Made by a program: the position numbers and the translations under genes
The notes under the pieces: model-generated
What the model saw: only the letters and a program-made list of their open reading frames with translations
The model's database searches: none
What the model was told of the DNA's origin: nothing
Part shown: in pieces, positions 5,312 through 40,507 of the stretch
Position numbering within the stretch: position 1 is the stretch's first letter
How the letters are laid out: each line of letters opens with the position of its first letter
Source: a virus
Taxonomy: Duplodnaviria > Heunggongvirae > Uroviricota > Caudoviricetes
IMG/VR virus record: IMGVR_UViG_3300042991_000725
Span: 59,632-123,631 of that record
Length of the DNA stretch: 64,000 nucleotides
Direction: 5' to 3' (one strand)

Positions 5312-5561
5312 GGCTATTTATCCAAAAAGTAAAAAACAATCTTTGCTGTACAGTGTCCTATACAAACAACAAAATAAACATATATCATTCCCCAAAACAA
5401 ATCAAGCATATCTTCACAAAATGTTGCTTTCATAAAACCCTCCATCCGTTGTTTATGGTAGGCGGCCAACGAGTCGAACGTTGTGTACGAAATTATAAGT
5501 TTCGCCCTCAAAACCGTCGAGGACACCGCCTGTATTTAAATATTTATTCCTTGCAGACTTC

Positions 5562-9085: not shown

Positions 9086-10069
9086 TTAGTTCGCAATAGC
9101 CATCGCCAAATCTAACGCCTTTGTCTTCACACCAATGCTTGGACCGTACCAAATGCGTTTAATCCTATTATTTTGCCTGAATTCATTCGTCTTTCCCCTT
9201 GTCGGCTTGAAATGATCTTCGTATTCTGCAACAGCTTGGAATGCGGCATATGTCGTCCCCTGCATTCCAGGCAAACGATTTGTGGAACTATTGAAAATTG
9301 TCTCTACGGAATTGCGGATATTTTCGGTGCGCGTATTTTTCCCCGCTTCCTTATTGTCTGGATAAATAGATTCCAGATAAGTTTTAAGTTCTCCAGAATT
9401 GATCTGCTTGCGGACAAGAACCTTCATTTGTTCCTCAAATAACTTATAATAATTCACGGTAATCCCAAGAATATGTCGAGACTGATCAATCTTCCCCTTG
9501 ATGCTCTTTGTATGTCGCACATTAATAGAATTTCCTATGTGATTCATTGCAATATTCAAGGTATTCTGACAGACAACACGCGTCGGCGTAAAACCAACGC
9601 AAACTGAACAGCTTCCATTATGGCTTGTTGAAAGCAACAGATATTTATTTATTTCATCGTTAGGAACAGCAGTTATTGGACTTCCAGAAAGTTTTGCCAT
9701 GATCCAAACACGACAACCGCGTTCCAATGCGCCTGCCGTTTCATAAATTGCCTGACCTTCTCCGACAACTCCATCAAAAAAATCAAAAGCTTCGAAGTTC
9801 TGCAAAATTGTATAATCATTTCCGACAACACCAAGAGCTTCATTTACGTCCGTGCGCACTGTTGCAAAAACATTTGGAATCGTAGTCCTTTCATCATCCT
9901 TCATAAAGGAAATATCACGTTTTTCCACAAGCCAATTAAGATGAGCTTTTTCAATAGCGTCTTGGGCCGTTAAGCATCCATCTACAACCTGGCCTAATTT
10001 GTGCCAAGGGATTTCCCGCACCGAAAACATAGACGCTACACCATTTCTGACATCAATATTCGCAGACAT
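9086..10069 (-). CDS. DUF932/TIGR03299-like phage/plasmid protein
   Basis: 327 aa; N-terminal MFSVREIPWHKLGQ matches my recollection of the DUF932 family start motif. Confidence 0.45.
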   Translation of the reverse strand: MSANIDVRNGVASMFSVREIPWHKLGQVVDGCLTAQDAIEKAHLNWLVEKRDISFMKDDERTTIPNVFATVRTDVNEALGVVGNDYTILQNFEAFDFFDGVVGEGQAIYETAGALERGCRVWIMAKLSGSPITAVPNDEINKYLLLSTSHNGSCSVCVGFTPTRVVCQNTLNIAMNHIGNSINVRHTKSIKGKIDQSRHILGITVNYYKLFEEQMKVLVRKQINSGELKTYLESIYPDNKEAGKNTRTENIRNSVETIFNSSTNRLPGMQGTTYAAFQAVAEYEDHFKPTRGKTNEFRQNNRIKRIWYGPSIGVKTKALDLAMAIAN

Positions 10070-11056: not shown

Positions 11057-11982
11057 ATAACAGGTTTAAATTGAGGAATAGCTCCAGTTTCTTCAGACAA
11101 TTCGGCATTTGCTTCGTCGTGTTCAACTTGACTATAAATTTTTCTCTCGTTTTCAGCAGACTCAATTTCCATAAGCCACTCTTTTTCCTCCTCGGTCAAT
11201 CCGGCATATTCATCATCTTCTGCGTCAATATCGGCCAAATCTTTTGAGAAATTGCGTGTATCTTTTGGATCATTTTTTGGATTGTCCCAATAACCATCAT
11301 ATTCATATGTCCCATTTTTCTTGAAATAACTTGCAGCATAATCGTAATCGCGAAACGGATAGACGCCAGAATAATCACCATAACTCCAAGCCTTTGTTTT
11401 GTACCCATCGTTAGAATAAAAAATTCCCTCATCTTCAATCCAATTACCGACTTTGTAAATAAACTTTGAAGTGAAAATAATTACCTTGCTTCTGCTTTCC
11501 TTTATAAAAAGCTCGATAAACTTTCTGGCTGAAGCGTACTTGGCCTCATCCTTTATCACATTGCTCAAAACATTTTTACAGAAAATCATGGTGTCTGACA
11601 CTTCGTTCTTTCTATCATTGAAAATTCCGAAGATTCCGTTATGCATAAGAAGATAGTCGTATGAACCAGACAATTTTTCCATTGTATCAAAGCGATTTGT
11701 TATTGGAAAAGGATGGGTGTGCTTCTCATTCGTCTTCCCGCTTGTTCCAATCCGTGCATGAAATGCGAACGCCGTACTTTTCATATCAACCTTTTCGCTA
11801 ATTCTTTTAATTGCACCAATTACTCCCTCTTTTGTTCTAAATCCCTTTTCAAAATAAATGCGCCCCTTCAAATAATACATGAAACCCGCACCGTCTCGAT
11901 TCGAACTCATCATATTTTCTACCTGCTTTTCCCAATCTTTGGGCATTTCTTTCTCAGACGGCTTGTACATAATTACGCACAT
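11053..11982 (-). CDS. class-II glutamine amidotransferase-like (Ntn-hydrolase, Cys2 nucleophile) protein
   Basis: Begins MCVIMYK (Cys directly after initiator Met); AFHARIGTSGKTNEKHTHPFPI fits the GATase-II HxRxxTxG...N.HPF motif; LMHNGIFGIF fits HNGxI. Confidence 0.5.
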   Translation of the reverse strand: MCVIMYKPSEKEMPKDWEKQVENMMSSNRDGAGFMYYLKGRIYFEKGFRTKEGVIGAIKRISEKVDMKSTAFAFHARIGTSGKTNEKHTHPFPITNRFDTMEKLSGSYDYLLMHNGIFGIFNDRKNEVSDTMIFCKNVLSNVIKDEAKYASARKFIELFIKESRSKVIIFTSKFIYKVGNWIEDEGIFYSNDGYKTKAWSYGDYSGVYPFRDYDYAASYFKKNGTYEYDGYWDNPKNDPKDTRNFSKDLADIDAEDDEYAGLTEEEKEWLMEIESAENERKIYSQVEHDEANAELSEETGAIPQFKPVI

Positions 11983-12881
11983 TACAGACCCCTTCCAGTA
12001 AAATAACTATTTAGTTCAACAAACTGTTGTTTGAAACAAAAATCCTTAAAAGTCTCCCATTTTGCCTCCGCAATTTTGTAAACATTATTGCTCATTACAA
12101 ATTTTCTCATGCAATGAATCAATTGAAGTGAAGCAATAAAATCGAAATGGTTCATTGTTCCCTTAAAAATTCTGAATTCGACCGTGCCTCTATTGGCAAT
12201 ATTTATGCAAATATACCTATCAATACATCTATTCTTAATGAGCTTCAAATCATAACGAGCAATTGCGCGTTTGCAATAAGAAAGTAAAGTTGGCTTGCGC
12301 CGAGAGAAAACAATCATTTGTTTCCAGAATTTTTGCATCAACCATACAAGTTTCAGAATATTTAATTGCTTGCCAGGTTCCGCACCTCCAAGAGATTCCG
12401 TCCCAAGATGAATATGTAATCCACACGTATTTTCTGCCGAACATCCTGCGTCGATTGTCAAATATTCAAAAATTTCCTTCCAATTAAATTCTTTATGAAA
12501 AGATAATGACGCTGGATTGCTTACCATTTCCATCCCGTTTCTAAGACTTCCATCATTCTTGAAGAAAATGAAATCGTGATATGCACTCAAAGATATAATA
12601 TTCTTCCTTATTTCTTTTTTCATCGAGTCATTTTCACATTCGAACTCTATTTCAACACCAAAAAATTCTTTATTTCTGACGAAACTGCGCTCTAATGGCT
12701 CTTTTCCAGTTTTAAAAAAGTAAAGGTCCAATTTTTTGTAATTATGCGGGAATAACTGAACAAAAAACTCGAAACAACCGCTGCATAAGCAAGTCCCATT
12801 CCTTAGTTTATACAACAGAGGGCTGTTTCCGCAAGAGCATGTTCCACCAAAGTCCTCGTTTTGGTAAAAAATCCTGTTCAT
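11982..12881 (-). CDS. amidoligase-like protein (Pfam Amidoligase_2-like, glutamine-synthetase-like fold)
   Basis: 299 aa; FGVEIEFE, CGLHIHLG, TVEFRIFKGT motifs shared with the paralog 12898..14130; the amidoligase assignment is from motif recall, not verified. Confidence 0.4.
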   Translation of the reverse strand: MNRIFYQNEDFGGTCSCGNSPLLYKLRNGTCLCSGCFEFFVQLFPHNYKKLDLYFFKTGKEPLERSFVRNKEFFGVEIEFECENDSMKKEIRKNIISLSAYHDFIFFKNDGSLRNGMEMVSNPASLSFHKEFNWKEIFEYLTIDAGCSAENTCGLHIHLGTESLGGAEPGKQLNILKLVWLMQKFWKQMIVFSRRKPTLLSYCKRAIARYDLKLIKNRCIDRYICINIANRGTVEFRIFKGTMNHFDFIASLQLIHCMRKFVMSNNVYKIAEAKWETFKDFCFKQQFVELNSYFTGRGL

Positions 12882-12897
12882 ATTCCCTCCAGCGGAT

Positions 12898-14130
12898 TTA
12901 TATTTTCTTTTCGCTAAATGGCGGCAACAGTCTTTTTTCGTCTAAATATTTGAATAGCATTTTAAATTCATATTTTGCCGCAAACTTCAAATAATCCTGC
13001 CATTGCATCTTGCTGATTTTCTTAACCGGAGTGGCTCTGACAAAATGACAAAAGGTGTGAACAAATTCCAATGTGGCTATTAGCGTAGAATATCTCAGTG
13101 TTCCATTAAAGATTCTGAATTCGGATGTTCTGCTCGGTGTTATATTAATACAGAAAAACTTCCCGTATTCACTACACTTATTTTTTACTTTTTGCAGATT
13201 GGTTATTGAATCATAACGGCGACAAAAGGTGTCAATCTGGCCGCTTTTTCGTCTGGAGAATTTTACAATTTCTGGCCAAAATTTTTGTGCCATCAAAATT
13301 AATTTCAAATCAGATATATCTTGGCCGCCACTATTCTTAGCAAAAAAGTCCTTGTTCACATGAACATGGAGGCCACAATTCCCTGCGTCATGGGACGTGC
13401 ATCCATTTTTTTCCAAATATGAAACAATCTCCTCCCAGCAAAAAAACTTGTGAAAATTTAATGTTCCCGGGTGAGACACGGCCTCAATTCCACAGCGAAG
13501 GCTCTCGTCTTCTTTGTAATACAAAAAATCGCTATCTTTTCTTTTCATCCAATCTACAATAGAGTGTCGGTCTCCATCCACTTCAAATTCCAATTCGACG
13601 CCAAGAAACAATTTTCTCGCAACGCCAAAATCTTCTTTGGTCTCTTTAAAGTTTGGGCTTGGCTTGTAATCGTGATTAAAGAGGGAGGAGCATTCTTCGG
13701 ACGCATCTGCACAATTATTGCAAAGGCAAGAGTTAGAACTAGAACAATCATCATTATGATAAGTTTCTCTGCAAGAATCGCAAACAAAATAGTCGTTTTC
13801 ATAACAATAATCACAAAGAAGTTTAGATCCATGAAAGCAAGCGTATTCGCTAATTCTGTCACTATCAAAAGAAATCTGACCACAATTCTCGCAAGTGATG
13901 GCTTTTTCTTTTGCACAAGCCGTGCAGGCTAAATTGCCATCACTATCTTTTTCAAGTTCGCTCATTGGGAATAATTCAGAACACAAAAAACATTGTATCA
14001 AATCATTGTAACACTTTTTGCAGTAAAACTTTCCGTTGGTACTGCCCGTTTCTTCTACGCAAGAAATCTCGTCGCACATAGCACACTGAATACCATGCTC
14101 CTCAATTGTATCGACATTCTGTTCGGCCAT
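12898..14130 (-). CDS. multi-zinc-ribbon + amidoligase-like protein
   Basis: 410 aa; N-terminal ~150 aa holds >10 CxxC pairs; C-terminal half is paralogous to 11982..12881 (LGVELEFE, CGLHVHV, TSEFRIFNGT). Confidence 0.4.
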   Translation of the reverse strand: MAEQNVDTIEEHGIQCAMCDEISCVEETGSTNGKFYCKKCYNDLIQCFLCSELFPMSELEKDSDGNLACTACAKEKAITCENCGQISFDSDRISEYACFHGSKLLCDYCYENDYFVCDSCRETYHNDDCSSSNSCLCNNCADASEECSSLFNHDYKPSPNFKETKEDFGVARKLFLGVELEFEVDGDRHSIVDWMKRKDSDFLYYKEDESLRCGIEAVSHPGTLNFHKFFCWEEIVSYLEKNGCTSHDAGNCGLHVHVNKDFFAKNSGGQDISDLKLILMAQKFWPEIVKFSRRKSGQIDTFCRRYDSITNLQKVKNKCSEYGKFFCINITPSRTSEFRIFNGTLRYSTLIATLEFVHTFCHFVRATPVKKISKMQWQDYLKFAAKYEFKMLFKYLDEKRLLPPFSEKKI

Positions 14131-14302: not shown

Positions 14303-14383
14303 TGCCGATGGCGGGAGTCGAACCCGCATGGGAAATCCCGGCGGCTTTTAAGGCCGCTGTGTCTGCCATTCCACCACATCGGC
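14303..14383 (-). tRNA. tRNA-Leu (anticodon UAA)
   Basis: Cloverleaf on minus strand: acceptor GCCGATG/CATCGGC+A, anticodon loop CU-UAA-AA, long variable arm (type II), T-arm GGGTTCGACTCCC. Confidence 0.75.
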
Positions 14384-14811: not shown

Positions 14812-15381
14812 TTAATAGATTAATTCCGTCGCCTTCGTGTGTTGCTCCCAAAGGTCAATGATCATTTTTTTGTGCGTCTTCCACCATGGCAACGTATCTT
14901 TGCACATTGCCGATATTTGCTGGTCCGTAAACGCGAACCACTTCGCGGCATCATGGATTTGGTACCCGATTTGAATATGTTTTTCGGTTATACATATTGG
15001 CCACTTGAGTCCCAAGATTTGAACCGGAGCCTTTTTTATTTCTTCTCCGTACAGGATTGCGCCGTACAGGCTAGCACCGCATAGGTTTGTACAGGAAACG
15101 TCTACACAGGAAAAGTTTGCGCCGTACAAGCTTGCATAAGACAGATTTACGTAAGACAAATTTGCATAGGAAAAATTTGCATAGGAAAGGTTTGCACAGG
15201 AAAAGTTTACACAGGAAAGGTTTCCGCCGTACAGGTTTATGTTGCACAGATTTGTGTAAGACAGATTTGCACCGTACAGGCTTACGCGGGATCTTATCGC
15301 TATTTCGACAGCCTCCTTGACCGATTCCGCATCACACTCGAAAATTACCAAATCAAGGTGATTGAATATCTGGATATTCAT
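14812..15381 (-). CDS. pentapeptide-repeat protein
   Basis: Start at internal ATG 15381 with GGAGG SD; ~20 consecutive A(N/D)LSx pentapeptides (ANLSYTNLCNINLYGGNLSCVNFSCANLSYANFSYANLSYVNLSYASLYGANFSC...). Confidence 0.7.
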   Translation of the reverse strand: MNIQIFNHLDLVIFECDAESVKEAVEIAIRSRVSLYGANLSYTNLCNINLYGGNLSCVNFSCANLSYANFSYANLSYVNLSYASLYGANFSCVDVSCTNLCGASLYGAILYGEEIKKAPVQILGLKWPICITEKHIQIGYQIHDAAKWFAFTDQQISAMCKDTLPWWKTHKKMIIDLWEQHTKATELIY

Positions 15382-15647
15382 TTTCCGGCCTCCTTCCACT
15401 GGCCTATCAGTCTCTGGCCAAATGCCCATAGAATTTCAATTTTTCCATCTTCTTCTAAAAGCTGCATTGCGTCGGCATAGGACGAGAGGCCGTTGGAATC
15501 CAATTTGCCTTTGCAAAAACACGCCTGATTTATTGTCCCGATCAGTGCCTCCTGATACTTTTCCAGTTCCGATTTGAGCCGGGAAATCTCGTTTTCCAAA
15601 TCAGAAACACACCGACAATCATTCACAGATTCACATATTTCGATCAT
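15378..15647 (-). CDS. hypothetical coiled-coil protein
   Basis: 89 aa; overlaps downstream gene by 4 nt. Confidence 0.4.
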   Translation of the reverse strand: MIEICESVNDCRCVSDLENEISRLKSELEKYQEALIGTINQACFCKGKLDSNGLSSYADAMQLLEEDGKIEILWAFGQRLIGQWKEAGK

Positions 15648-19715: not shown

Positions 19716-19788
19716 TGACGGCGGAGGGAATTGAACCCTCGACCCCCGGATTAAAAATCCGATGTTCTGCCAACTGAACTACGCCGTC
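19716..19788 (-). tRNA. tRNA-Lys (anticodon UUU)
   Basis: Minus-strand cloverleaf: acceptor GACGGCG/CGCCGTC+A, anticodon loop UU-UUU-AA, T-arm GGGTTCAATTCCC. Confidence 0.75.
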
Positions 19789-20050: not shown

Positions 20051-20443
20051 TTATTTTTGGTTTTTAAGGAGGGTAAACAATGCAGTATCGCGAACTTTTT
20101 CATACACATCTTGAGCAGAACCGCAAACTTTGGCATACTCTGTCCAAGCGGCATACCCCGCCCAAGTAGAATCACAAACCTTGCAATACTCTACCCAAGC
20201 AGCATTATAAACTTTTTCATGTACCTCCCAAGCAGAATCGCGAATTTTGGTATACTTTGCCAAATTTCTCGGACTCAAAAATTTCGCGCAAAACAATACA
20301 TCCAACTCCACGCCCTTCGCCTTTTCCCAATTGCCCCTTGTTATTTTTGCACCATCTGGGAACATCTTCCTGAACAAAGAGGTTTGTTTTCTACAGGCTT
20401 TTCCCGCCTTCAGCATTTCGGCGGTGATCTTCGTTATTTTCAC
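20051..20443 (-). CDS. tandem-family paralog 7 (AWAEY 11-residue-repeat protein)
   Basis: GTG start (VKITKITAEML) set by the invariant 25-nt spacer and AAGGG SD; same architecture as the other six copies. Confidence 0.55.
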   Translation of the reverse strand: MKITKITAEMLKAGKACRKQTSLFRKMFPDGAKITRGNWEKAKGVELDVLFCAKFLSPRNLAKYTKIRDSAWEVHEKVYNAAWVEYCKVCDSTWAGYAAWTEYAKVCGSAQDVYEKVRDTALFTLLKNQK

Positions 20444-20468
20444 CGGAATTCCCTTTCGATGTAAAAGA

Positions 20469-20843
20469 TTATTCTTGGTTTTCGAGAAGGATAAACAATG
20501 CGGAATCGCAAACTTTTTCATACTCTGTCCAAGTAGAACCGAGAGCTTTGGTATAATCTGCCCAAGCAGAACCGCAAATTCCGGCATACTCTACCCAAAC
20601 AGAATCGCGAATTTTGTTATACTCTTCCCAAGCAGAATTGCGAATTTTAATATACTCTGCCAACTTTCCCGGACTCAAAAATTTCACGCAAAATGAAATA
20701 TTCAAGCCCGCGCCCTTTGCCTTCTCCCAATTGGCCCTTGTGATTTTTGCGCCATTCGGGAAAATCTTTTTGAACAAAGCGGCTTGCTGTCCAGAGATTT
20801 TTCCCGCTTCCAGCATTTCGGCGGTGATCTTCGTTATTTCCAC
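20469..20843 (-). CDS. tandem-family paralog 6
   Basis: MEITKITAEMLEAGK...ALFILLENQE; 124 aa. Confidence 0.6.
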   Translation of the reverse strand: MEITKITAEMLEAGKISGQQAALFKKIFPNGAKITRANWEKAKGAGLNISFCVKFLSPGKLAEYIKIRNSAWEEYNKIRDSVWVEYAGICGSAWADYTKALGSTWTEYEKVCDSALFILLENQE

Positions 20844-20868
20844 TGAAGTCCCCTTTCAATGTAAAAGA

Positions 20869-21177
20869 TTATTCTTGGCTTTCAAGAAGAGTAAATAAGG
20901 CAGAAACGCAAACTTTTTCATATTCTGTCCAAGTAGAACCGAGAGCTTTGGTATAATCCGCCCAAGCAGAATCGCGAATTTTGTTATACTCTGCCAACTT
21001 TTCCGGGCTCAAAAATTTCACACAAAAAAAGACACTCAAGCCCGCGCCCTTTGCCTTCTCCCAATTGGCCCTTGTGATTTTTGCGCCATCTGGGAAAATC
21101 TCTTTGAATAAAGTAGCTTGCTGTCCACAGACTTTTTCAGCTTCCAGCATTTCGGCGGTGATCTTCGTTATTTTCAT
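20869..21177 (-). CDS. tandem-family paralog 5
   Basis: Internal ATG start (MKITKITAEMLEAEK) 25 nt after the upstream stop; 102 aa, shortest copy with two repeats. Confidence 0.55.
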   Translation of the reverse strand: MKITKITAEMLEAEKVCGQQATLFKEIFPDGAKITRANWEKAKGAGLSVFFCVKFLSPEKLAEYNKIRDSAWADYTKALGSTWTEYEKVCVSALFTLLESQE

Positions 21178-21202
21178 GAGAGTTCCCTTTCGATGTAAAA
21201 GA

Positions 21203-21676
21203 TTATTCTTGGCTTTCGAGGAGGGCAAATAAGGCAGAAACGCAAACTTTTTCATACTCTGTCCAAGTAGAATTCCAAACTTTGTCGTACTTTGCCCTGG
21301 CAGGACCGCAAATATTGTTGTACTCTACCCAAGCAGGGTTGTTACCTTTGTTATACTCTGGCAAATTAAAACCGCAAACTTTGGCATACTCTGCCCAAGC
21401 AAGACAGAGGATTTTATCATACTTTATCCGGGCAAGTTCGCAAACTTCGTCATACTCTGCCCAAGCAGAATCGCGAATTTTGGAAAACTCTGCCAACTTT
21501 TTCGGGCTCAAAAATTTCACACAAAACCAGACATCCAACTCCACGCCCTTTGCCTCTTCCCAATTGCCCCTTGTAAGTTTTGCGCCATCTGGGAAAATCT
21601 TTTTGAATAAAGCAACTTGCTGTCCACAGGCATTTTCCGCTTCCAGCATTTCGGCGGTGATCTTCGTTATTTTCAC
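21203..21676 (-). CDS. tandem-family paralog 4
   Basis: GTG start VKITKITAEML; 157 aa with ~7 repeats. The ORF-track extension to 21928 is an out-of-frame read through the upstream paralog. Confidence 0.55.
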   Translation of the reverse strand: MKITKITAEMLEAENACGQQVALFKKIFPDGAKLTRGNWEEAKGVELDVWFCVKFLSPKKLAEFSKIRDSAWAEYDEVCELARIKYDKILCLAWAEYAKVCGFNLPEYNKGNNPAWVEYNNICGPARAKYDKVWNSTWTEYEKVCVSALFALLESQE

Positions 21677-21701
21677 GGGAGTCACCTTCCAATGTAAAAG
21701 A

Positions 21702-22109
21702 TCATTCTTGGTTTTTGAGAAGATCAAACAAGGCAGAAACGCAAACTTTTTCATAATCTGCCCAAGTAGAATCGAGGACTTTGATATAATCTTCCAAAGT
21801 AGGATAGCGAATTTTTCCATACTCCGCCCAAGCAGTTCTGTCAACTTTGTTGTACTCTGCCATAGCAGAATCGCAAATTTTGGAATACTTTGCCCAAGCA
21901 GGACCGAGGACTTTGTTATATTCTGCAAAATTCTCCGGACTCAAAAATTTCACGCAAAACAAGACATCCAAGTCCGCCTTCTTTGCCTTCTCCCAATTGG
22001 CCCTTGTGAATTTTATGCCATTCGGGAAAATCTCTTTGAACAAAGCGGTTTGCTGTCCACAGGCTTTTTCCGCTTCCAGCATTTCAACGGTGATCTTTGT
22101 TACTTTCAT
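21702..22109 (-). CDS. tandem-family paralog 3
   Basis: MKVTKITVEMLEAEK...ALFDLLKNQE; 135 aa. Confidence 0.6.
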   Translation of the reverse strand: MKVTKITVEMLEAEKACGQQTALFKEIFPNGIKFTRANWEKAKKADLDVLFCVKFLSPENFAEYNKVLGPAWAKYSKICDSAMAEYNKVDRTAWAEYGKIRYPTLEDYIKVLDSTWADYEKVCVSALFDLLKNQE

Positions 22110-22134
22110 GAGAGTCCCCTTTTAATGTAAAAGA

Positions 22135-22509
22135 TCATTCTTGGTTTTTGAGAAGATCAAACAATGCAATATCGCGGACTTTCCCATACACATCTCGAGC
22201 AGAACCGAGAGTTTTGATATATTCTGTCCAAGCAGGGCCGCAAGCTTTGGAATACTTTGCCCAAGCAAGTTCGCGGATTTTGTTATGTTCTGTCCGAGCA
22301 GAATCGCGAACTTTGATATAATCTGCCAAATTCTCCGGGCTCAAAAATTCCACGCAAAACAAGATATCCAACTCCGCATTCTTTGCCTTCTTCCAATTGG
22401 CCTTTGTGAATTTTGCGCCATCTGGGAAAAGTTCTTTGAACAAAGCGACTTGCTCCTTACAGGCTTTTCCCGTCTTCAGCATTTTGGCGGTGATCTTTGT
22501 TACTTTCAT
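22135..22509 (-). CDS. tandem-family paralog 2
   Basis: MKVTKITAKMLKTGK...ALFDLLKNQE; 124 aa. Confidence 0.6.
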   Translation of the reverse strand: MKVTKITAKMLKTGKACKEQVALFKELFPDGAKFTKANWKKAKNAELDILFCVEFLSPENLADYIKVRDSARTEHNKIRELAWAKYSKACGPAWTEYIKTLGSARDVYGKVRDIALFDLLKNQE

Positions 22510-22534
22510 TTAAATTCCCTTTCAGTGTAAAAGA

Positions 22535-23014
22535 TTATTTTTGGTTTTCGAGGAGGGCAAACAAGGCAGAATCGCGAACTTTTTCATACTCTGTCTGAGC
22601 AGAATCGCGAACTTTGATCTGCTCTGCCCAAGTAGCTCTGCAAATTTTGTCGTACTTTCTGAAACGACTCTCTGACGAATAAGGGATTGAAACGTACTCC
22701 GCCCAAGTAGCTCTGGAAATTTTGTTGCGCTTTATCCGAGCAAGTTCACAGATTTTGGCAACCTCCCAAGCAGAATCACAAATTTTAGTACATTCCGCCC
22801 AAGCAGAGCCGTCGATTTTGTTATATTTTGCCAAATTCTCCGGGCTCAAAAATTTCATGCAAAATAAGACATCTAAGCCTGCCCTTTTCGCTTTCTCCCA
22901 ATTATCCCTTGTGAATTTTGCACCATCTGGAAACATCTTCCTGAACAAAGCGGTTTGTTTTTTACAGGCTTTTCCCGCCTTTAACATTTTAATAGTGATC
23001 TTTGTCATTTTCAT
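22535..23014 (-). CDS. tandem-family paralog 1
   Basis: MKMTKITIKMLKAGK...ALFALLENQK; 159 aa. Confidence 0.6.
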   Translation of the reverse strand: MKMTKITIKMLKAGKACKKQTALFRKMFPDGAKFTRDNWEKAKRAGLDVLFCMKFLSPENLAKYNKIDGSAWAECTKICDSAWEVAKICELARIKRNKISRATWAEYVSIPYSSESRFRKYDKICRATWAEQIKVRDSAQTEYEKVRDSALFALLENQK

Positions 23015-23026
23015 TTAAATTCCCTT

Positions 23027-23347
23027 TTAATAAGGATAAGATTTTGATTTAATCCGACCTGTATAACCAAGGCGGATTGGATAATATTTCTTTGGAGAGG
23101 TTTCGGCGTGTCTTGTAAATGGCGAATAAGACCACCCGTTAATCCAGGCGGATCGGTTCCAGAAAACAAGGATAGAGCGAAAACTTCTCTCGTTCCGTGC
23201 CCATAACCCATCTTTATAAAAGAACTTGCCTTCTTTGTAAACTGAATATTCAAATTTCTTGGTATTCGGCATCTTGGACCTAAAAAACTCTGTGCTTATT
23301 TTGTTGTCCATAATGATGAAACCTCGTCGAAAATTGATAGTTGGCAT
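23027..23347 (-). CDS. hypothetical protein
   Basis: 106-aa ORF ending 12 nt upstream of paralog 1. Confidence 0.35.
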   Translation of the reverse strand: MPTINFRRGFIIMDNKISTEFFRSKMPNTKKFEYSVYKEGKFFYKDGLWARNERSFRSILVFWNRSAWINGWSYSPFTRHAETSPKKYYPIRLGYTGRIKSKSYPY

Positions 23348-33021: not shown

Positions 33022-34230
33022 ATGAAGTATTATAATGGAAATGACGCACTTGTAATAAAAAGTTGGTGCAATAATCCAGAAGATTCGGCCCTTGATCAAG
33101 CCAAGAATTTAGCCAAATTGCCGTTTGCTTATGGCAGTATTTGTTTGATGCCAGATACACATGCTGGTTACGGAATGCCCATAGGTGGAGTTCTCGCCAC
33201 CAAAGATGTTGTAATTCCTAATGCTGTTGGGGTAGATGTGGGATGTGGAATGTGTGTAGCAAAAACAAATTTACATGATTTATCAACGGATACTATCAAA
33301 CGTATTGTGGGAGAAATTAGAAAGGTTGTTCCGCTTGGATTTAACCATCACAAAGAGCCTCAACCAAAATCGCTGATGCCAGAAGGAGACTTGTATTATC
33401 AAGAATACTACAATAATTATTTTGATAAAATGTTTATTTGTGAAAGAAATCATGACAAGGCAAGAGAGTCTCTTGGAACGCTGGGCGGAGGCAATCATTT
33501 TATTGAGATACAAAAAGACAGCAGAGGGATTGTATGGATTATGATTCATTCTGGATCTCGTAATTTAGGCAAACAGGTTGCCGATCATTACAATAGGTTG
33601 GCGATAGAATTAAATGAATCATATTATAGCAATGTTCCAAAAGAATGGCAATTGGCTTTTTTGCCTATAAATTTTGAAGAAGGCGAAAAATATATACAGG
33701 AAATGGATTATTGCGTCAAGTACGCCAAGGCTAATAGAAAGTTGATGATGACAAGAATAATGCAGTGTTTTGTTGATATTATTCCTGATTGCTTATTTTC
33801 TTCTATTGACGGGAACACTGTTCTTGATGTTGTTCATAATTATGCTAGAATGGAAAATCATTTCGGACACAATTTAATGGTTCATCGAAAAGGTGCTACT
33901 TCTGCAAGAAAAGACGAATATGGGATTATACCGGGATCACAAGGGACTGCGAGCTATATAGTCAAGGGGCTTGGCAATCCAGATAGTTTCATGTCTTGTT
34001 CCCATGGCGCTGGCCGTAAAATGGGCAGGAAAGAAGCCAAGCGAACCCTTAATTTGGATTCAGAAAAGAAGAAGCTTGACGATTTGGGAATTGTCCACGG
34101 CATACGCAGCGTTGACGATTTAGAAGAGGCTTGTAGTGCATATAAAGATATTGATGTGGTTATGGAAGAGCAAAAAGATCTTGTGGAAATCGTTGAGCGT
34201 CTTAAACCTCTTGGCCTTATTAAGGGATAA
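33022..34230 (+). CDS. rtcB: RNA-splicing ligase RtcB (3'-phosphate/5'-OH RNA ligase)
   Basis: 402 aa; CLMPDTHAGYGMPIGGV, GGGNHFIEIQ, IHSGSRNLGKQ and CSHGAGRKM match the RtcB metal/GTP-binding motifs. Confidence 0.85.
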   Translation: MKYYNGNDALVIKSWCNNPEDSALDQAKNLAKLPFAYGSICLMPDTHAGYGMPIGGVLATKDVVIPNAVGVDVGCGMCVAKTNLHDLSTDTIKRIVGEIRKVVPLGFNHHKEPQPKSLMPEGDLYYQEYYNNYFDKMFICERNHDKARESLGTLGGGNHFIEIQKDSRGIVWIMIHSGSRNLGKQVADHYNRLAIELNESYYSNVPKEWQLAFLPINFEEGEKYIQEMDYCVKYAKANRKLMMTRIMQCFVDIIPDCLFSSIDGNTVLDVVHNYARMENHFGHNLMVHRKGATSARKDEYGIIPGSQGTASYIVKGLGNPDSFMSCSHGAGRKMGRKEAKRTLNLDSEKKKLDDLGIVHGIRSVDDLEEACSAYKDIDVVMEEQKDLVEIVERLKPLGLIKG

Positions 34231-37428: not shown

Positions 37429-37504
37429 TCTGGGGTAGCTCAGCTGGTAGAGCGACGGACTGTTAATCCGTTTGTCGCAGGTTCAAATCCTGCTCCCAGA
37501 GCCA
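37429..37504 (+). tRNA. tRNA-Asn (GUU)
   Basis: Acceptor TCTGGGG/TCCCAGA, anticodon loop CU-GUU-AA, T-arm GGTTCAAATCC, CCA encoded. Confidence 0.8.
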
Positions 37505-37511
37505 AAATTAT

Positions 37512-37583
37512 CAGGGTGTGGGCCAATGGCTGGCCACCAGTCTTGGGCACTGGGTCATGCAGGTTCGACTCCTGTCACCCTGA
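37512..37583 (+). tRNA. tRNA-Pro (UGG)
   Basis: Acceptor CAGGGTG/CACCCTG, anticodon stem CCAGT/ACTGG, loop CU-UGG-GC. Confidence 0.75.
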
Positions 37584-37595
37584 TTTAATATGTGC

Positions 37596-37666
37596 GTCCC
37601 TGTGATCTAATGGCAGGATACCAGATTTTCAGTCTGGGTGCAAGGGTTCGATCCCCTTCAGGGATA
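37596..37666 (+). tRNA. tRNA-Glu (UUC)
   Basis: Acceptor GTCCCTG/CAGGGAT, anticodon loop UU-UUC-AG; D-arm TCTAATGGCAGGA homologous to bacterial tRNA-Glu. Confidence 0.75.
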
Positions 37667-37684
37667 TTTGTTCTTTGAAAATGT

Positions 37685-37758
37685 AGCCCATTAACTCAAC
37701 TGGCTAGAGTGCCACTTTTACACGGTGGAAGTTGAAGGCTCGAATCCTTCATGGGCTA
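37685..37758 (+). tRNA. tRNA-Val (UAC)
   Basis: Acceptor AGCCCAT/ATGGGCT, anticodon loop UU-UAC-AC, T-arm GAAGGCTCGAATCCTTC. Confidence 0.7.
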
Positions 37759-37764
37759 TTTAAT

Positions 37765-37838
37765 GCTCGGTTAGTGTAGTGACAACACGCGACACTGTCG
37801 ATGTCGAGTCAGGAGTTTAATTCTCCTACCGAGTGCCA
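37765..37838 (+). tRNA. tRNA-Asp (GUC)
   Basis: Anticodon stem CGACA/TGTCG, loop CU-GUC-GA; CCA encoded. Confidence 0.8.
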
Positions 37839-37865
37839 TTTTTTTCGGGCTATGTGCCCACCAAT

Positions 37866-37936
37866 GGGGACATAACATAATGGGAATGTGTTACCCTTGC
37901 AAGGTAAAAATGTGGTTTCGACTACCACTGTCTCCA
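37866..37936 (+). tRNA. tRNA-Ala (UGC)
   Basis: Acceptor GGGGACA/TGTCTCC with G3:U70 identity pair; anticodon loop CU-UGC-AA. Confidence 0.8.
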
Positions 37937-37985
37937 TTATCTTTTATTTTTTGCTCTTTGACAATATTGCTGTAAAACGTAACAC

Positions 37986-38073
37986 AGAAGCGTAGCCTAA
38001 CGGTAAGGCAGCACTTTGCTAAAGTGCCATGCGTCCACAAGGCGTATTGAGAGTTCAATTCTCTCCGCTTCTG
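37986..38073 (+). tRNA. tRNA-Ser (GCU)
   Basis: Type II; acceptor AGAAGCG/CGCTTCT+G, anticodon loop UU-GCU-AA, long variable arm. Confidence 0.8.
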
Positions 38074-38095
38074 CTTTATAAAACTAGGAGCCCAT

Positions 38096-38815
38096 ATGCA
38101 AACTAATACAATGAAGTGCGAATATGGATGTGGGAATAACGCTTTATACAAGTTGCCTAAAGGCAGATGGTGTTGTTCGACGAGCTTTAATTCGTGTCCT
38201 GCTTCCAGAGAAAAAAACAGAATAGCCGTTCTCGATAGCTATAAAAATGGAAGATCTGGTTATTGGAAAGGCAAAAGTTATCCAAGTTTTGGCAAAAAAT
38301 ATGAAGAAATGTACGGCAAGGACAGGTCTGAAATAATCAAAGATAAAATATCAAAGTCTTTGATTGGCGTTTCTCCGGGCAGAGCAAGTACGGACGAGAA
38401 AGAACAAATAAGAAGATCTCGCATTTCTGCAAAAATGATTCTTAATAAATGTGGCGGGTATAGGTACGGTAGCGGCAGAGGTAAAAAGGGAACATATAAG
38501 GGGTATTGGTGTGATAGTAGTTGGGAGCTAGCCTATGTTATTTATTGTTTAGATCATAGTATCAAAATAAGTAGAAATTGGACAAGGTTTCCTTATGTTT
38601 ATAAAGGCAAGCAGCGTTTTTGGATTCCAGACTTTGTTAAAGAAGATACCTATATCGAGATTAAAGGATATGAGACAAAAAAGGATGAAGCAAAATTCAA
38701 TTATTTTAAAAAGAGCTTGATTATTCTTAAAGAAAAAGAAATGCGTTTTATACTAAGTTATGTTACTGATAAATACGGAAAGGACTATATTTCAATGTAC
38801 GAAAGGAAGAGTTGA
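38096..38815 (+). CDS. zinc-finger + PD-(D/E)xK nuclease domain protein (putative homing endonuclease inside the tRNA array)
   Basis: 239 aa; AGGAG SD; N-terminal CEYGCG...CCSTSFNSC zinc cluster; C-terminal WCDSSWE...PDFVKEDTYIEIKG (D...E-x-K); stop overlaps the 5' end of tRNA-Ser(UGA) by 11 nt. Confidence 0.5.
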   Translation: MQTNTMKCEYGCGNNALYKLPKGRWCCSTSFNSCPASREKNRIAVLDSYKNGRSGYWKGKSYPSFGKKYEEMYGKDRSEIIKDKISKSLIGVSPGRASTDEKEQIRRSRISAKMILNKCGGYRYGSGRGKKGTYKGYWCDSSWELAYVIYCLDHSIKISRNWTRFPYVYKGKQRFWIPDFVKEDTYIEIKGYETKKDEAKFNYFKKSLIILKEKEMRFILSYVTDKYGKDYISMYERKS

Positions 38816-38896
38816 CCACAGTGGGTGCGTGGCCTTGTCTTGAAAACAAGTGCCCATGAAAGTGGGCTGAGAGTTCAAATCTCTCCTCTTCCTCCA
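38805..38896 (+). tRNA. tRNA-Ser (UGA)
   Basis: Type II; acceptor GGAAGAG/CTCTTCC, anticodon stem CTTGT/ACAAG, loop CU-UGA-AA, T-arm GAGAGTTCAAATCTCTC; end taken with encoded CCA. Confidence 0.7.
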
Positions 38897-38898
38897 CT

Positions 38899-38968
38899 GC
38901 CCCGTGGTGTAATTGGAAACGCGCTGGCCTTTGGAGCCGGAGTCTCCCGTTCAAATCGGGACGGGGCA
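38899..38968 (+). tRNA. tRNA-Gln (UUG)
   Basis: Acceptor GCCCCGT/ACGGGGC+A, anticodon loop CU-UUG-GA. Confidence 0.7.
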
Positions 38969-38977
38969 ATTTTATAC

Positions 38978-39049
38978 TGCCCAGTGGTGTAATAGAAACA
39001 TATCGGACTCTGACTCCGAAGACTTCAGGTGCAAGTCCTGACTGGGCAA
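38978..39049 (+). tRNA. tRNA-Gln (CUG)
   Basis: Acceptor TGCCCAG/CTGGGCA+A, anticodon stem TCGGA/TCCGA, loop CU-CUG-AC. Confidence 0.7.
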
Positions 39050-39058
39050 TTTTTATTC

Positions 39059-39142
39059 GCAAGTGTAGCCCGTTATGGAGGCGGATGAGCCTGTAGAGCT
39101 CATATCTTCGGATCATAGAAGGTTCGATTCCTTCCACTTGCA
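39059..39142 (+). tRNA. tRNA-Tyr (GUA)
   Basis: Type II; acceptor GCAAGTG/CACTTGC+A, anticodon stem TGAGC/GCTCA, loop CU-GUA-GA. Confidence 0.8.
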
Positions 39143-39153
39143 TTTTATATTGT

Positions 39154-39226
39154 CGCAGGGTCGCCAAATGGTAAGGCTCCAGACTCATAATCTGGCAATT
39201 TGCTGGTTCGATTCCGGCCCCTGCTA
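39154..39226 (+). tRNA. tRNA-Met or Ile2 (CAU)
   Basis: Anticodon stem CCAGA/TCTGG, loop CU-CAU-AA. Elongator-type (no 3 G-C pairs in anticodon stem); a C1:U72 mismatch is read at the acceptor end, so termini are approximate. Confidence 0.65.
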
Positions 39227-39237
39227 TTTATTTTTAT

Positions 39238-39310
39238 GGTGGCTATAGTGTAGAGGACTGCACGTCTGACTGTGGCTCAGGAAGTCTGGGATCGTTACCC
39301 AGTAGTCACC
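39238..39310 (+). tRNA. tRNA-His (GUG)
   Basis: Encoded extra G(-1) opposite discriminator C73 (His hallmark); acceptor GTGGCTA/TAGTCAC, anticodon loop CU-GUG-GC. Confidence 0.8.
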
Positions 39311-39321
39311 CCATTTTTCTT

Positions 39322-39394
39322 GCGAGTGTAGCTGAATAAGACTAGCACCGGATTTTTAATCCGGGATATGTGGGTGCGAATCCCATCACTCGCA
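39322..39394 (+). tRNA. tRNA-Lys (UUU)
   Basis: Acceptor GCGAGTG/CACTCGC+A, anticodon stem CCGGA/TCCGG, loop UU-UUU-AA. Confidence 0.8.
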
Positions 39395-39399
39395 CTTTT

Positions 39400-39472
39400 G
39401 CGTCTGTAGCTCAATTGGCAGAGCATTTGGTTCTTACCCAAGGGGTTGGAGGTTCAAGTCCTCCCAGACGCA
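39400..39472 (+). tRNA. tRNA-Lys (CUU)
   Basis: Acceptor GCGTCTG/CAGACGC+A, anticodon loop UU-CUU-AC. Confidence 0.7.
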
Positions 39473-39480
39473 TTTTATTT

Positions 39481-39553
39481 GCTGGTGTAGCTTAATGGTT
39501 AAAGCGTCAGCCTTATAAGCTGAAAATCGGTGGTCCAATTCCACCCACCAGTA
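39481..39553 (+). tRNA. tRNA-Ile (UAU)
   Basis: Acceptor GCTGGTG/CACCAGT+A, anticodon stem TCAGC/GCTGA, loop CU-UAU-AA (AUA decoder). Confidence 0.65.
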
Positions 39554-39560
39554 CCATTCT

Positions 39561-39636
39561 GCGCTCATGGTGTAATGGATAACATTTCTGACTACGAATC
39601 AGAAGAGTGCAGGTTCGAGTCCTGCTGGGCGTACCA
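39561..39636 (+). tRNA. tRNA-Arg (ACG)
   Basis: Anticodon stem TCTGA/TCAGA, loop CU-ACG-AA; CCA encoded. Confidence 0.75.
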
Positions 39637-39637
39637 T

Positions 39638-39709
39638 GTGCCTGTGGTGTAATGGATAACATGTCACGGTCCTAACGTGTCGATTTGGGTTCAATTCCCA
39701 ACGGGCATA
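39638..39709 (+). tRNA. tRNA-Arg (CCU)
   Basis: Anticodon stem CACG/CGTG, loop GU-CCU-AA; T-arm TTGGGTTCAATTCCCAA. Confidence 0.65.
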
Positions 39710-39735
39710 TTTACTTTGAAAGGCGGTGATAACCA

Positions 39736-40326: not shown

Positions 40327-40358
40327 GAGTTAAGCAGACAAACGTTTCGAATAAGCAC

Positions 40359-40431
40359 ATGCCCATAGTCTAATTGGATAGGCGCCAGACTTCTAATCTG
40401 GTTTATGAGGGTCCGAGTCCCTCTGGGCATA
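40359..40431 (+). tRNA. tRNA-Arg (UCU)
   Basis: Acceptor ATGCCCA/TGGGCAT+A, anticodon stem CCAGA/TCTGG, loop CU-UCU-AA. Confidence 0.75.
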
Positions 40432-40433
40432 TT

Positions 40434-40507
40434 GCGGGTGTGGCTCAGTGGTAGAGCGCGACGTTGCCATCGTCGATGCGAGGGTCCGATTCCCTTCACT
40501 CGCTCCA
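40434..40507 (+). tRNA. tRNA-Gly (GCC)
   Basis: Acceptor GCGGGTG/CACTCGC, anticodon stem CGACG/CGTCG, loop UU-GCC-AU; CCA encoded. Confidence 0.8.

What the first reader, a model, noticed from the sequence alone, without database searches (positions are those of the whole stretch)
20051..23014. Seven tandem paralogs with variable numbers of an 11-residue AWAEY repeat
Seven co-oriented genes separated by an invariant 25-nt spacer (giving consistent ATG/GTG starts) share a conserved ~65-aa N-terminal domain (MK(I/V)TKITAEMLxAGKACxxQxALFKxIFPDGAKxTRxNWEKAK...FCVKFLSPENLAEY) and C-terminus (ALFxLLxNQE). They differ in carrying 2 to 8 copies of an 11-codon repeat (~DSAWAEYxKIx), i.e. ongoing repeat expansion/contraction plus whole-gene duplication. 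Eleven-residue periodicity suggests amphipathic helices. This is a rapidly diversifying phage gene family of unknown function (candidates: decoy/anti-defence, host-interaction or assembly scaffold). I do not recognise the N-terminal domain.
Basis: seen in the sequence. Interest (0 to 1): 0.75.

Follow-up and report, generated by a model that had tools for sequence, protein, structure and literature searches.

The report
Seven tandem head-plus-coiled-coil phage genes
A large uncultivated phage carries seven diverged side-by-side copies of a small gene, each encoding a compact 58-residue head and a helical tail of 4 to 9 eleven-residue units; they belong to a very large phage protein family that no curated database describes and whose function is unknown.

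Summary
Seven co-oriented genes lie on the minus strand at 23014-20051, encoding 102-159 aa, and each of the six gaps is exactly 25 nt. Each protein has a 58-aa head followed by 4-9 units of 11 residues (about SAWAEYxKVCD) and ends in SALFxLLxNQE.

The copies are old and distinct. Heads are 73-90% identical in DNA, with mean dN/dS of 0.27, so this is not an assembly artefact. Terminal units correspond between copies, while middle units are gained or lost as whole 33-nt blocks.

AlphaFold2 (pLDDT 93) gives a small four-helix head and two long helices folded into a hairpin. The sequence has the 11/3 amphipathic pattern of hendecad coiled coils.

The head matches nothing significant in Pfam, PHROGs, NCBIfam, PADLOC, PDB or BFVD. 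An exhaustive profile search nevertheless finds 4,451 cluster representatives, most with the same 11-residue tail.

All 11 relative contexts examined are phage-like, in runs of small ORFs, often close to replication or recombination genes. They carry one to three copies each; one has three adjacent copies with 4, 6 and 7 units. The same tail is also fused to at least three other head types.

My best inference, at low confidence, is early-expressed target-binding proteins with an oligomerising stalk of variable length, diversified by duplication.

The parts
22535..23014 (-). G1, 159 aa, ATG start. Head 23014-22841; tail of about 8-9 units with indels (one 25-residue and one 10-residue unit). 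Most basic head (+10.5).
   Evidence: head profile E = 9.6e-26
22135..22509 (-). G2, 124 aa, ATG start. Head 22509-22336; 6 units.
   Evidence: E = 9.4e-26
21702..22109 (-). G3, 135 aa, ATG start. Head 22109-21936; 7 units.
   Evidence: E = 2.3e-26
21203..21676 (-). G4, 157 aa, GTG start. Head 21676-21503; 9 units. The modelled protein: helix 58-101, loop 102-113 at the degenerate unit FNLPEYNKGNN, helix 114-155.
   Evidence: E = 1.1e-25
20869..21177 (-). G5, 102 aa, ATG start. Head 21177-21004; 4 units, the minimal form. Equivalent to G6 without its units 2-3.
   Evidence: E = 9.9e-26
20469..20843 (-). G6, 124 aa, GTG start. Head 20843-20670; 6 units. Carries A16I and C17S at the two most conserved head positions.
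   Evidence: E = 8e-24
20051..20443 (-). G7, 130 aa, GTG start. Head 20443-20270; 6.5 units (one 6-residue partial unit, STWAGY).
   Evidence: E = 6e-26
22510..22534 (-). 25-nt spacer G1/G2, TCTTTTACACTGAAAGGGAATTTAA, with a Shine-Dalgarno-like AAGGG.
22110..22134 (-). 25-nt spacer G2/G3
21677..21701 (-). 25-nt spacer G3/G4
21178..21202 (-). 25-nt spacer G4/G5
20844..20868 (-). 25-nt spacer G5/G6
20444..20468 (-). 25-nt spacer G6/G7
23015..23030 (-). Leader of G1. Its last 13 nt (AAAGGGAATTTAA) are identical to the end of the G1/G2 spacer, which marks the 5' edge of the duplicated unit. The preceding ORF ends only about 12 nt upstream of the G1 start codon, so the array sits inside a longer minus-strand transcription unit.
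   Evidence: no terminator-like site between the genes

Best explanation
The seven genes are diverged tandem paralogues of one small cytoplasmic phage protein. They belong to a very large, uncatalogued family found almost only in uncultivated phages.

Shown:
- Each protein is a compact 58-residue head (beta-alpha-alpha-beta-alpha-alpha, with a conserved I-T...L....A-C..Q...F core).
- The head is followed by a tail of 11-residue (hendecad) amphipathic units, consensus [P/A/S]-A-[W/L/R]-A-E-Y-x-[K/R]-[V/I]-[R/C]-[A/D/G], and a C-terminal A-(L/F)-F-x-L-L cap.
- The array grew by duplication of a unit made of ribosome-binding site, gene and short trailer.
- Afterwards, recombination between paralogues and between the 33-nt units shuffled tail ends and added or removed whole units.
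- Purifying selection kept the head fold while its surface and net charge drifted widely (-0.5 to +10.5).

Inferred:
- The genes are co-transcribed, probably early in infection.
- The head is the specificity module that binds a host or phage macromolecule.
- The hendecad tail forms a coiled-coil stalk, as an intramolecular hairpin and/or between chains, that oligomerises the heads and sets their spacing.
- The seven variants cover several targets or target variants, as in host takeover or counter-defence.
For: Anatomy and coordinates.

The copies are real and diverged. Heads are 73-90% identical in DNA, with mean dN 0.155, mean dS 0.574 and a ratio of 0.27. Paralogue variation falls preferentially at family-variable head positions (Spearman 0.30, p = 0.026).

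Unit-level evolution and mosaicism. First, penultimate and last units match across genes at up to 97% (G5.2 = G6.4, G4.8 = G5.3 = G6.5). G1's head is closest to G7's (82%), yet its last unit is closest to G4's (91%). G2's head is closest to G3's, yet its penultimate unit is closest to G7's.

Structure. AF2 on G4 gives pLDDT 93.3 and pTM 0.78; the head alone gives pLDDT 86.7. The hydrophobic moment at 11/3 periodicity is 0.45-0.67 in G3-G6, above the heptad value. The only profile echoes are weak ones to other non-heptad coiled coils: Scy, ATP synthase b and V-ATPase E.

Family size. The head profile finds 4,451 representatives at E <= 1e-3 and 1,587 at E <= 1e-10 among 1.84 billion proteins. 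Of the 134 best hits with a tail of at least 25 aa, 84 have an 11- or 22-residue period. A profile built from the window copies alone recovers the relatives at E down to 7e-17.

Phage context. The window has 32 tRNAs, ribonucleotide reductase, RtcB, an RNA ligase and a DNA methyltransferase. Eleven independent relative loci are phage-like and place the gene in runs of small ORFs. Most lie near replication, recombination or integration genes: DnaB, DNA polymerase A, the beta clamp, a RecA-dependent nuclease, RecT, a Holliday-junction resolvase, Ant, PrimPol, UvrD or an integrase. For L008 and L016 the phage-like reading rests only on the run of small ORFs.

Recurrence of the theme. L014 has three adjacent paralogues with 4, 6 and 7 units. 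L001, L002 and L008 have two dispersed copies each. Proteins P0067-P0075 contain 2-4 fused head-plus-tail modules. L009 has near-perfect 33-nt repeats.

The tail is an independent module, fused to other heads that begin with M-C.
Against: No experiment or characterised homologue supports any function.

Expression timing is inferred only from gene position. The promoter and terminator scans were uninformative.

The AF2 hairpin may be what a monomer prediction does with a helix that really pairs between chains. G5, with four units, is too short for the same hairpin.

Mean dN/dS of 0.27 does not indicate an arms race. The values near 1 in the closest pairs rest on 57 codons and may reflect gene-conversion patches that lower dS.

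No partner gene is conserved next to the family, and there is no match to known defence-system components.

G6 has lost the nearly invariant A-C motif, so not all copies need be equivalent or functional.
Confidence: 0.4

Rival explanations
1. Nucleic-acid-binding regulators or nucleoid-associated proteins. The basic head binds DNA or RNA and the coiled-coil tail dimerises or polymerises it, an H-NS-like logic with the domain order reversed. The seven copies would then tune transcription, translation or genome compaction.
Confidence: 0.2
2. Virion or assembly proteins, such as decoration fibres, whiskers, scaffolds or length rulers, in which tail length sets a distance.
For: The architecture is a coiled-coil stalk of variable length carrying a small terminal knob. 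There are weak sub-threshold echoes to tape-measure and coiled-coil profiles (P0033 against phrog_1533, E = 1.8e-4).
Against: The gene usually lies close to replication, recombination or integration genes and inside runs of small ORFs; only L002 also has lysis and tail-fibre genes within a few kilobases. There is no significant PHROG structural hit for the window proteins. Copy number of 1-7 and strongly varying head charge are odd for a stoichiometric structural part.
Confidence: 0.1
3. Lipid- or surface-binding amphipathic 11-mer proteins, resembling group-3 LEA proteins, apolipoproteins, perilipin or alpha-synuclein. They would coat membranes or protect macromolecules during infection.
For: The 11-residue period has an 11/3 amphipathic pattern, and proline opens 28% of family units, as in proline-punctuated apolipoprotein repeats (the apolipoprotein comparison is from general knowledge). 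Relative P0019 gives a sub-threshold LEA_4 hit (27.7 bits, E = 2.5e-6, cut-off 51.1).
Against: The window proteins give no LEA_4 hit even at E <= 10. On the 11/3 wheel the hydrophobic stripe (V9, A2, Y6, C10, W3) is flanked by Glu (positions 5 and 7), with Lys8 in the middle of the polar face. That is the reverse of lipid-binding class A helices (wheel computed from the consensus; helix classes from general knowledge). AF2 packs the helices against each other with high confidence. The globular head has no counterpart in those families.
Confidence: 0.1
4. Assembly artefact or decaying selfish repeat: the array is a mis-assembled single gene, or non-functional duplicated DNA.
For: Repetitive regions are prone to mis-assembly, and no reads were available. 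G6 has lost the conserved A-C motif.
Against: All seven copies differ from one another by 10-27% in the head, and every junction is unique. All reading frames are intact with the same 25-nt spacing and a ribosome-binding site. Heads are under purifying selection (ratio of mean dN to mean dS 0.27). An independent contig has a three-gene array.
Confidence: 0.03

Closest known systems
Hendecad (11-residue, non-heptad) coiled coils: Streptomyces Scy/FilP, the peripheral stalks of rotary ATPases (subunit b, E/G), tetrabrachion
   Same: Both have an 11-residue period with a hydrophobic stripe at 11/3 spacing and form long uninterrupted helices. They give the only, very weak, profile echoes: Scy NF041483, ATP synthase b and V-ATPase E. 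A precomputed weak hit to PF28068 'Scy' exists for a relative.
   Different: All scores are far below the curated cut-offs (for example 16-26 bits against 1040 for Scy), and the window proteins themselves give none of these hits in the curated family libraries. The unit is Trp/Tyr-rich (AWAEY). The proteins are 100-160 aa with a globular head, are phage-encoded, and vary in unit number between adjacent paralogues.
Group-3 LEA proteins (Pfam LEA_4), apolipoprotein A-I and alpha-synuclein 11-mer amphipathic repeats
   Same: Tandem 11-residue amphipathic units in variable numbers, with proline often at unit boundaries.
   Different: No LEA_4 match for the window proteins. The charge arrangement around the hydrophobic face is opposite. 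A folded N-terminal domain is present. The context is viral and cytoplasmic.
Viral 'genomic accordions': tandem amplification of counter-defence genes, such as poxvirus K3L (own knowledge) and T-even phage segmental amplification (PMC13096335, abstract only)
   Same: An accessory gene of a virus is present as a head-to-tail array, produced by recombination between repeats.
   Different: Accordion copies are recent and nearly identical. Here the copies are 73-90% identical, with dS up to about 2, and each has its own tail length. This is therefore a long-retained, diversified multigene family, not a transient amplification.
SAM / helix-hairpin-helix-like small helical domains

Membership tests
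Uncatalogued phage 'A-C..Q..F head + hendecad tail' family (defined here by profile A3) | N-terminal domain of about 55 residues matching the head profile (I-T, L, A-C, Q, F, W-A-A..L-L) | tested here: met
   All seven copies score E = 8e-24 to 2e-26. A profile made from the window copies alone finds about 35 independent relatives at E between 7e-17 and 3e-5. There are 4,451 representatives in the exhaustive search.
Uncatalogued phage 'A-C..Q..F head + hendecad tail' family (defined here by profile A3) | Tail of 11-residue units x-A-[W/L/R]-A-E-Y-x-[K/R]-[V/I]-x-x, ending in an A-(L/F)-hydrophobic cap | tested here: met
   4-9 units per window protein. 84 of 134 top family members have an 11- or 22-residue period. 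The family consensus comes from 299 units.
Uncatalogued phage 'A-C..Q..F head + hendecad tail' family (defined here by profile A3) | Encoded by phages, in runs of small ORFs, usually near replication or recombination genes | tested here: met
   Window. Relatives. In 185,579 species genomes, only 5 MAG contigs carry two adjacent AWAEY-type units.
LEA_4 (PF02987) | Score above the Pfam gathering threshold (51.1 bits) | tested here: not met
   No hit for any window protein at E <= 10. Relative P0019 reaches only 27.7 bits.
Scy / FilP coiled-coil proteins (NF041483, PF28068) | Profile score above the cut-off; very long rod built of 51-residue repeats | tested here: not met
   The three window proteins scanned (G1, G4, G5) give no hit. 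Relatives score 10-26 bits against a cut-off of 1040. The proteins are 102-159 aa.
YdhT_N (PF27195) | Significant Pfam match | tested here: inconclusive
   This model is not in the local Pfam copy. It appears only as a precomputed 'faint' hit on relatives P0029, P0045 and P0230, and 'faint' means no single hit reaches E = 0.001. None is recorded for the window proteins.
Known anti-phage defence system components (PADLOC-DB) | Profile match | tested here: not met
   No hit at E <= 1 for three window proteins and seven relatives.
Known anti-defence proteins (Acr, Ocr, sponges and others) | Homology to, or demonstrated inhibition of, a defence system | not testable with these tools
   No anti-defence profile library was available, and the literature search found no description of this family.
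Recent gene amplification ('accordion') | Near-identical tandem copies | tested here: not met
   Head nucleotide identity is 73-90% and dS is 0.11-1.99.

The most novel reading that the evidence does not exclude
The AWAEY hendecad tail is a portable assembly or docking module that uncultivated phages fuse to at least four unrelated heads: the A-C..Q..F head seen here and three heads that begin with M-C. In this phage the seven paralogues, which keep nearly identical first, penultimate and last tail units but differ in head surface and stalk length, would co-assemble through those shared units. The result would be mixed coiled-coil bundles that display several different heads at different heights. 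That would make a combinatorial, multivalent binder of host targets, and a previously unrecognised class of phage counter-defence or host-takeover platform.
Probability: 0.12. Interest if true: 0.75.

Novelty: new variant of a known kind. Interest (0 to 1): 0.45.

Why it matters
Small early phage proteins are where most inhibitors of host machinery and host immunity have been found, and most remain unannotated. This work defines a family with thousands of sequence clusters that is absent from Pfam, PHROGs, NCBIfam, the PDB and 50,697 GenBank phage records at the sensitivities used. It has a confident predicted fold and a modular architecture (interchangeable heads on one hendecad tail), and its length changes by whole 11-residue units.

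The seven-gene array is a natural allelic series: same fold, different surfaces and different stalk lengths. That makes the family experimentally tractable, since one can ask which copy binds what and whether stalk length matters. It is also a clean natural example of Trp/Tyr-rich hendecad coiled coils for protein-design work. If the family proves to be an ordinary structural or regulatory accessory, the value is mainly in annotation.

Tried and rejected
Profile libraries:
- Pfam, PHROGs, NCBIfam and PADLOC gave nothing significant on the window proteins and relatives. The best results were noise-level hits such as DUF5717 (E = 0.029) and phrog_34645 (E = 0.0034) on the repeat region.
- The precomputed Pfam ids seen on relatives turned out to be 'Scy' (weak) and 'YdhT_N' (faint), not a family for this head.

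Structure comparisons:
- PDB by sequence gave no hit for the head and only E > 0.1 coiled-coil echoes for the whole protein.
- The AFDB50 library was not available.

Searches for relatives:
- tblastn of G5 and two typical relatives against 50,697 GenBank phage records found no match.
- IMG/VR returned one distant locus.
- The JGI metagenome contig scan found no confirmed relative, not even the source contig.
- An exact look-up of G5 found it was not on record. Copy number in close relatives of this phage therefore could not be compared.
- A word-indexed search with the head profile recovered few sequences and no names. Cluster look-up gave no informative names.

Literature: three searches found no paper describing the motif or the family.

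Other readings considered and dropped:
- DNA mimic: rejected, because the proteins are neutral to strongly basic.
- Secreted or membrane protein: dropped, because the sequences show no hydrophobic N-terminus or hydrophobic segment (read directly).
- Conserved partner gene: none found. The only shared neighbour type is a pentapeptide-repeat protein, in 2 loci.
- RNA element or regulatory signal in the spacers: Rfam found nothing, there is no terminator, and the promoter-like matches are weak (9 of 12) and simply repeat with the spacer.
- Plus-strand ORFs in the array: rejected as antisense shadows.
Full report
**1. What is there**

The region 20051-23014 holds seven open reading frames on the minus strand:

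| Gene | Coordinates | Length | Start |
|---|---|---|---|
| G1 | 23014-22535 | 159 aa | ATG |
| G2 | 22509-22135 | 124 aa | ATG |
| G3 | 22109-21702 | 135 aa | ATG |
| G4 | 21676-21203 | 157 aa | GTG |
| G5 | 21177-20869 | 102 aa | ATG |
| G6 | 20843-20469 | 124 aa | GTG |
| G7 | 20443-20051 | 130 aa | GTG |

- The six gaps are each exactly 25 nt. Fifteen of the 25 columns are invariant (TCTTTTACA at the 5' end and an AAGG core 7-9 nt before the start codon), so the length is invariant but the sequence is not.
- The 13 nt before the G1 start are identical to the end of the first spacer. The preceding ORF ends about 12 nt upstream of the G1 start codon.
- No terminator-like site separates the genes, and the promoter-like matches are weak and merely recur with the spacer. 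The array therefore looks like part of one longer minus-strand operon.
- Rfam finds no RNA family in the array. The only hit in 15-30 kb is the tRNA-Lys at 19716-19788, just downstream.
- The long plus-strand ORFs across the array are antisense shadows. All homology and all selective constraint lie on the minus strand.

**2. Anatomy of the proteins**

- All seven share a 58-residue N-terminal domain without indels. The rest is built of 11-residue units: a first degenerate unit (xxLAEYxKIRD), internal units close to SAWAEYxKVCD, and a terminal unit SALFxLLxNQ(E/K).
- Unit totals are about 8-9 in G1 (with indels) and 6, 7, 9, 4, 6 and 6.5 in G2-G7.
- Pooling 299 units from the family gives the consensus [P/A/S]-A-[W/L/R]-A-E-Y-x-[K/R]-[V/I]-[R/C]-[A/D/G].
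- On an 11/3 helical wheel, positions 9, 2, 6, 10 and 3 (V, A, Y, C/R, W) form one stripe. The hydrophobic moment at that periodicity is 0.45-0.67 for G3-G6 and exceeds the heptad value.
- AlphaFold2 with a 45-sequence family alignment models G4 at mean pLDDT 93.3 and pTM 0.78. The head has two two-residue strands and four short helices (residues 1-55). One helix then runs 58-101, a loop falls at the degenerate unit FNLPEYNKGNN, and a second helix runs 114-155. I read the two long helices as a hairpin; the tool returns no coordinates to confirm the packing.
- The head alone models at pLDDT 86.7.
- The hairpin could be a monomer-prediction surrogate for pairing between chains. G5, with four units, cannot form the same hairpin.

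**3. How the array evolved**

- Head DNA identity between copies is 73-90%. Nei-Gojobori estimates give mean dN 0.155 and mean dS 0.574, a ratio of 0.27. Pairs involving G1 range 0.09-0.18, while the closest pairs (G2-G3, G3-G6, G4-G5) range 0.8-1.1.
- The latter values rest on 57 codons and could partly reflect gene conversion, so I treat them as relaxed or possibly diversifying, not proven.
- Replacements among paralogues fall preferentially at positions that also vary across the wider family (Spearman 0.30, p = 0.026). G6 is the exception: it has replaced the two most conserved head residues (A16I, C17S).
- Each 33-nt unit usually has its best match in another gene at the corresponding position, not within its own gene. 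First, penultimate and last units correspond across paralogues at up to 97% identity.
- G5 equals G6 without units 2-3.
- Head and tail-end similarities disagree: G1's head is nearest G7's, but its last unit is nearest G4's. This shows recombination among copies.
- Within-gene unit identity is only 67-77%, so no recent expansion is visible here.
- With every copy distinct and every junction unique, assembly collapse or expansion is very unlikely, though reads were not available to check.

**4. What family it is**

- Nothing significant came from Pfam, PHROGs, NCBIfam or PADLOC for the window proteins or their relatives.
- The Pfam ids precomputed on a few relatives are 'Scy' (weak) and 'YdhT_N' (faint), that is, repeat-driven or noise-level hits.
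- PDB by sequence gives nothing for the head and only E > 0.1 echoes of ATP synthase b and V-ATPase E for the tail.
- Foldseek against PDB and BFVD gives nothing at E <= 1e-3. One uncharacterised metagenomic siphovirus protein is a probable head relative (probability 0.99, 30% identity over 53 columns).
- In contrast, the word-indexed search found 59 non-self relatives.
- The exhaustive profile search with the head alone found 4,451 cluster representatives at E <= 1e-3 and 1,587 at E <= 1e-10.
- Their median length is 120 aa. Of the 134 best with a tail of at least 25 residues, 84 show an 11- or 22-residue period, and many of the rest show degraded versions of it.
- Some proteins contain 2-4 complete head-plus-tail modules in one chain.

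**5. Where the family lives**

- The window is from a large phage: 32 tRNA genes, ribonucleotide reductase, RtcB, an RNA ligase, a DNA methyltransferase, amidoligases and a radical SAM protein. The source contig is 154 kb.
- Eleven independent loci with relatives are all phage-like and place the gene in runs of small, often overlapping ORFs. In nine of them replication, recombination or integration genes lie nearby:
  - DnaB and DNA polymerase A (L001);
  - a RecA-dependent nuclease (L002);
  - the beta clamp, an SNF2 protein and a methyltransferase (L003);
  - DNA polymerase A and a primase (L007);
  - a RecT-like annealing protein, a Holliday-junction resolvase and Ant (L014);
  - PrimPol and UvrD (L015);
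  - DnaB (L017);
  - an integrase and Sipho_Gp157 (L018).
- For L008 and L016 the phage-like reading rests only on the run of small ORFs. L009 is an IMG/VR viral contig whose flanks I did not annotate.
- tblastn of three members against 50,697 GenBank phage records found nothing.
- A DNA pattern for two adjacent AWAEY-type units hit only five MAG contigs among 185,579 species genomes.
- The family is thus essentially confined to uncultivated phages, at these sensitivities.
- Copy number elsewhere is one or two dispersed copies. The exception is L014, which has three adjacent paralogues with 4, 6 and 7 units. The seven-copy array is the largest seen here.
- L009 carries a member with near-perfect 33-nt repeats, so unit expansion is active in the family.
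- No neighbouring gene is conserved across loci. Only a pentapeptide-repeat protein recurs, in the window at 14812-15429 and next to the L001 member.

**6. The tail is a module of its own**

- Among the first 59 relatives, the same AWAEY tail follows at least three other N-terminal domains that begin with M-C (MCEFVSWIEKDG..., MCxGFGVIVTKDG..., MCRMISILVSR...).
- It also precedes a different C-terminal domain in a few proteins.
- None of these heads matches a curated family.

**7. Function**

Nothing here tests function directly, so the following is inference.

- Two observations argue for a non-structural accessory role: the gene's position in small-ORF regions next to replication genes, and the absence of hits to structural families.
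- A conserved fold with a free-running surface fits a binding module whose target varies. Head net charge runs from -0.5 to +10.5 within the array, and the family-wide median is -1.4, with 44% below -2.
- That same charge spread argues against a conserved nucleic-acid-binding role, although the window's own heads are mostly basic.
- The tail has the signature of hendecad coiled coils and is reused with other heads, which fits an oligomerisation or docking stalk.
- I therefore favour early-expressed target-binding proteins with a coiled-coil stalk of variable length, diversified by duplication (confidence about 0.4 for the functional part; the descriptive part is well supported).
- Rivals are:
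  - DNA- or RNA-binding regulators (0.2);
  - virion or assembly parts (0.1);
  - LEA- or apolipoprotein-like surface binders (0.1);
  - artefact or decay (0.03).

**8. Verdict**

It is a diversified phage multigene family with an unrecognised head, but the copies are old and mostly constrained rather than rapidly diversifying. The array is also one instance of a very large, uncatalogued family rather than an isolated oddity. It is a new variant of known kinds of things (hendecad coiled-coil repeat proteins, tandem viral accessory gene families), of moderate interest.

Noticed in passing
window 37429-41415 (plus 5456-5531, 14303-14383, 19716-19788): The window holds 32 tRNA genes. Twenty-nine of them lie in one plus-strand cluster interrupted by a few ORFs, and a lone tRNA-Lys(UUU) sits directly downstream of the paralogue array.
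   Followed up: no
window 33022-34230 (+), 829-1863 (-), 1865-2926 (-): An RtcB-type tRNA-splicing ligase, an RNA ligase and a neighbouring endonuclease-like protein are present. Together with the large tRNA set, this looks like an RNA-repair kit against host anticodon nucleases.
   Followed up: partly
window 14812-15429 (-); L001 7525-8346: A pentapeptide-repeat protein (Pfam E = 1.8e-16) lies about 5 kb from the array. A 48%-identical relative sits immediately upstream of the family member in phage contig L001. This is the only neighbour type shared between loci.
   Followed up: partly
window 11982-14130 (-), 9086-10069 (-), 46075-47319 (-), 56953-58071 (+): Other accessory genes in the window: two adjacent amidoligase-like genes, a DUF932 protein, a radical SAM protein, and a UDP-GlcNAc 2-epimerase-like gene that matches cyanophage and Staphylococcus/Listeria phage records at about 30% identity.
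   Followed up: no
L014 5369-6668 (Acidobacteriota MAG contig JANNUT010000018.1): Three adjacent family paralogues with overlapping stop and start codons and 4, 6 and 7 tail units. They sit in a temperate-phage early region with a RecT-like protein, a Holliday-junction resolvase and an anti-repressor.
   Followed up: yes
L009 8001-8633 (IMGVR_UViG_3300037240_000024): A family member whose tail is a run of near-identical 33-nt repeats (SASAEYERVCA / PAYAEYKRVCA, at least 9 copies). This is evidence of recent unit expansion.
   Followed up: partly
proteins P0018-P0057; L010 4116-4874; L012 1-426: The same AWAEY hendecad tail is fused to at least three other head domains that all start with Met-Cys (MCEFVSWIEKDG..GHGAI..ECTDFS; MCxGFGVIVTKDGRYLFCEPD..SHSEIL; MCRMISILVSRSG..DGVHSH). 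In P0039, P0050 and P0060 it precedes a different C-terminal domain. None of these domains matches a curated family.
   Followed up: partly
proteins P0067-P0075, P0101, P0110: Polypeptides of 212-636 aa that contain 2-4 complete head-plus-tail modules in series. These are either fused tandem paralogues or read-through gene calls.
   Followed up: no
window 20469-20843 (G6): G6 alone has replaced the nearly invariant Ala-Cys of the head with Ile-Ser. It may be a functionally divergent or decaying copy.
   Followed up: partly
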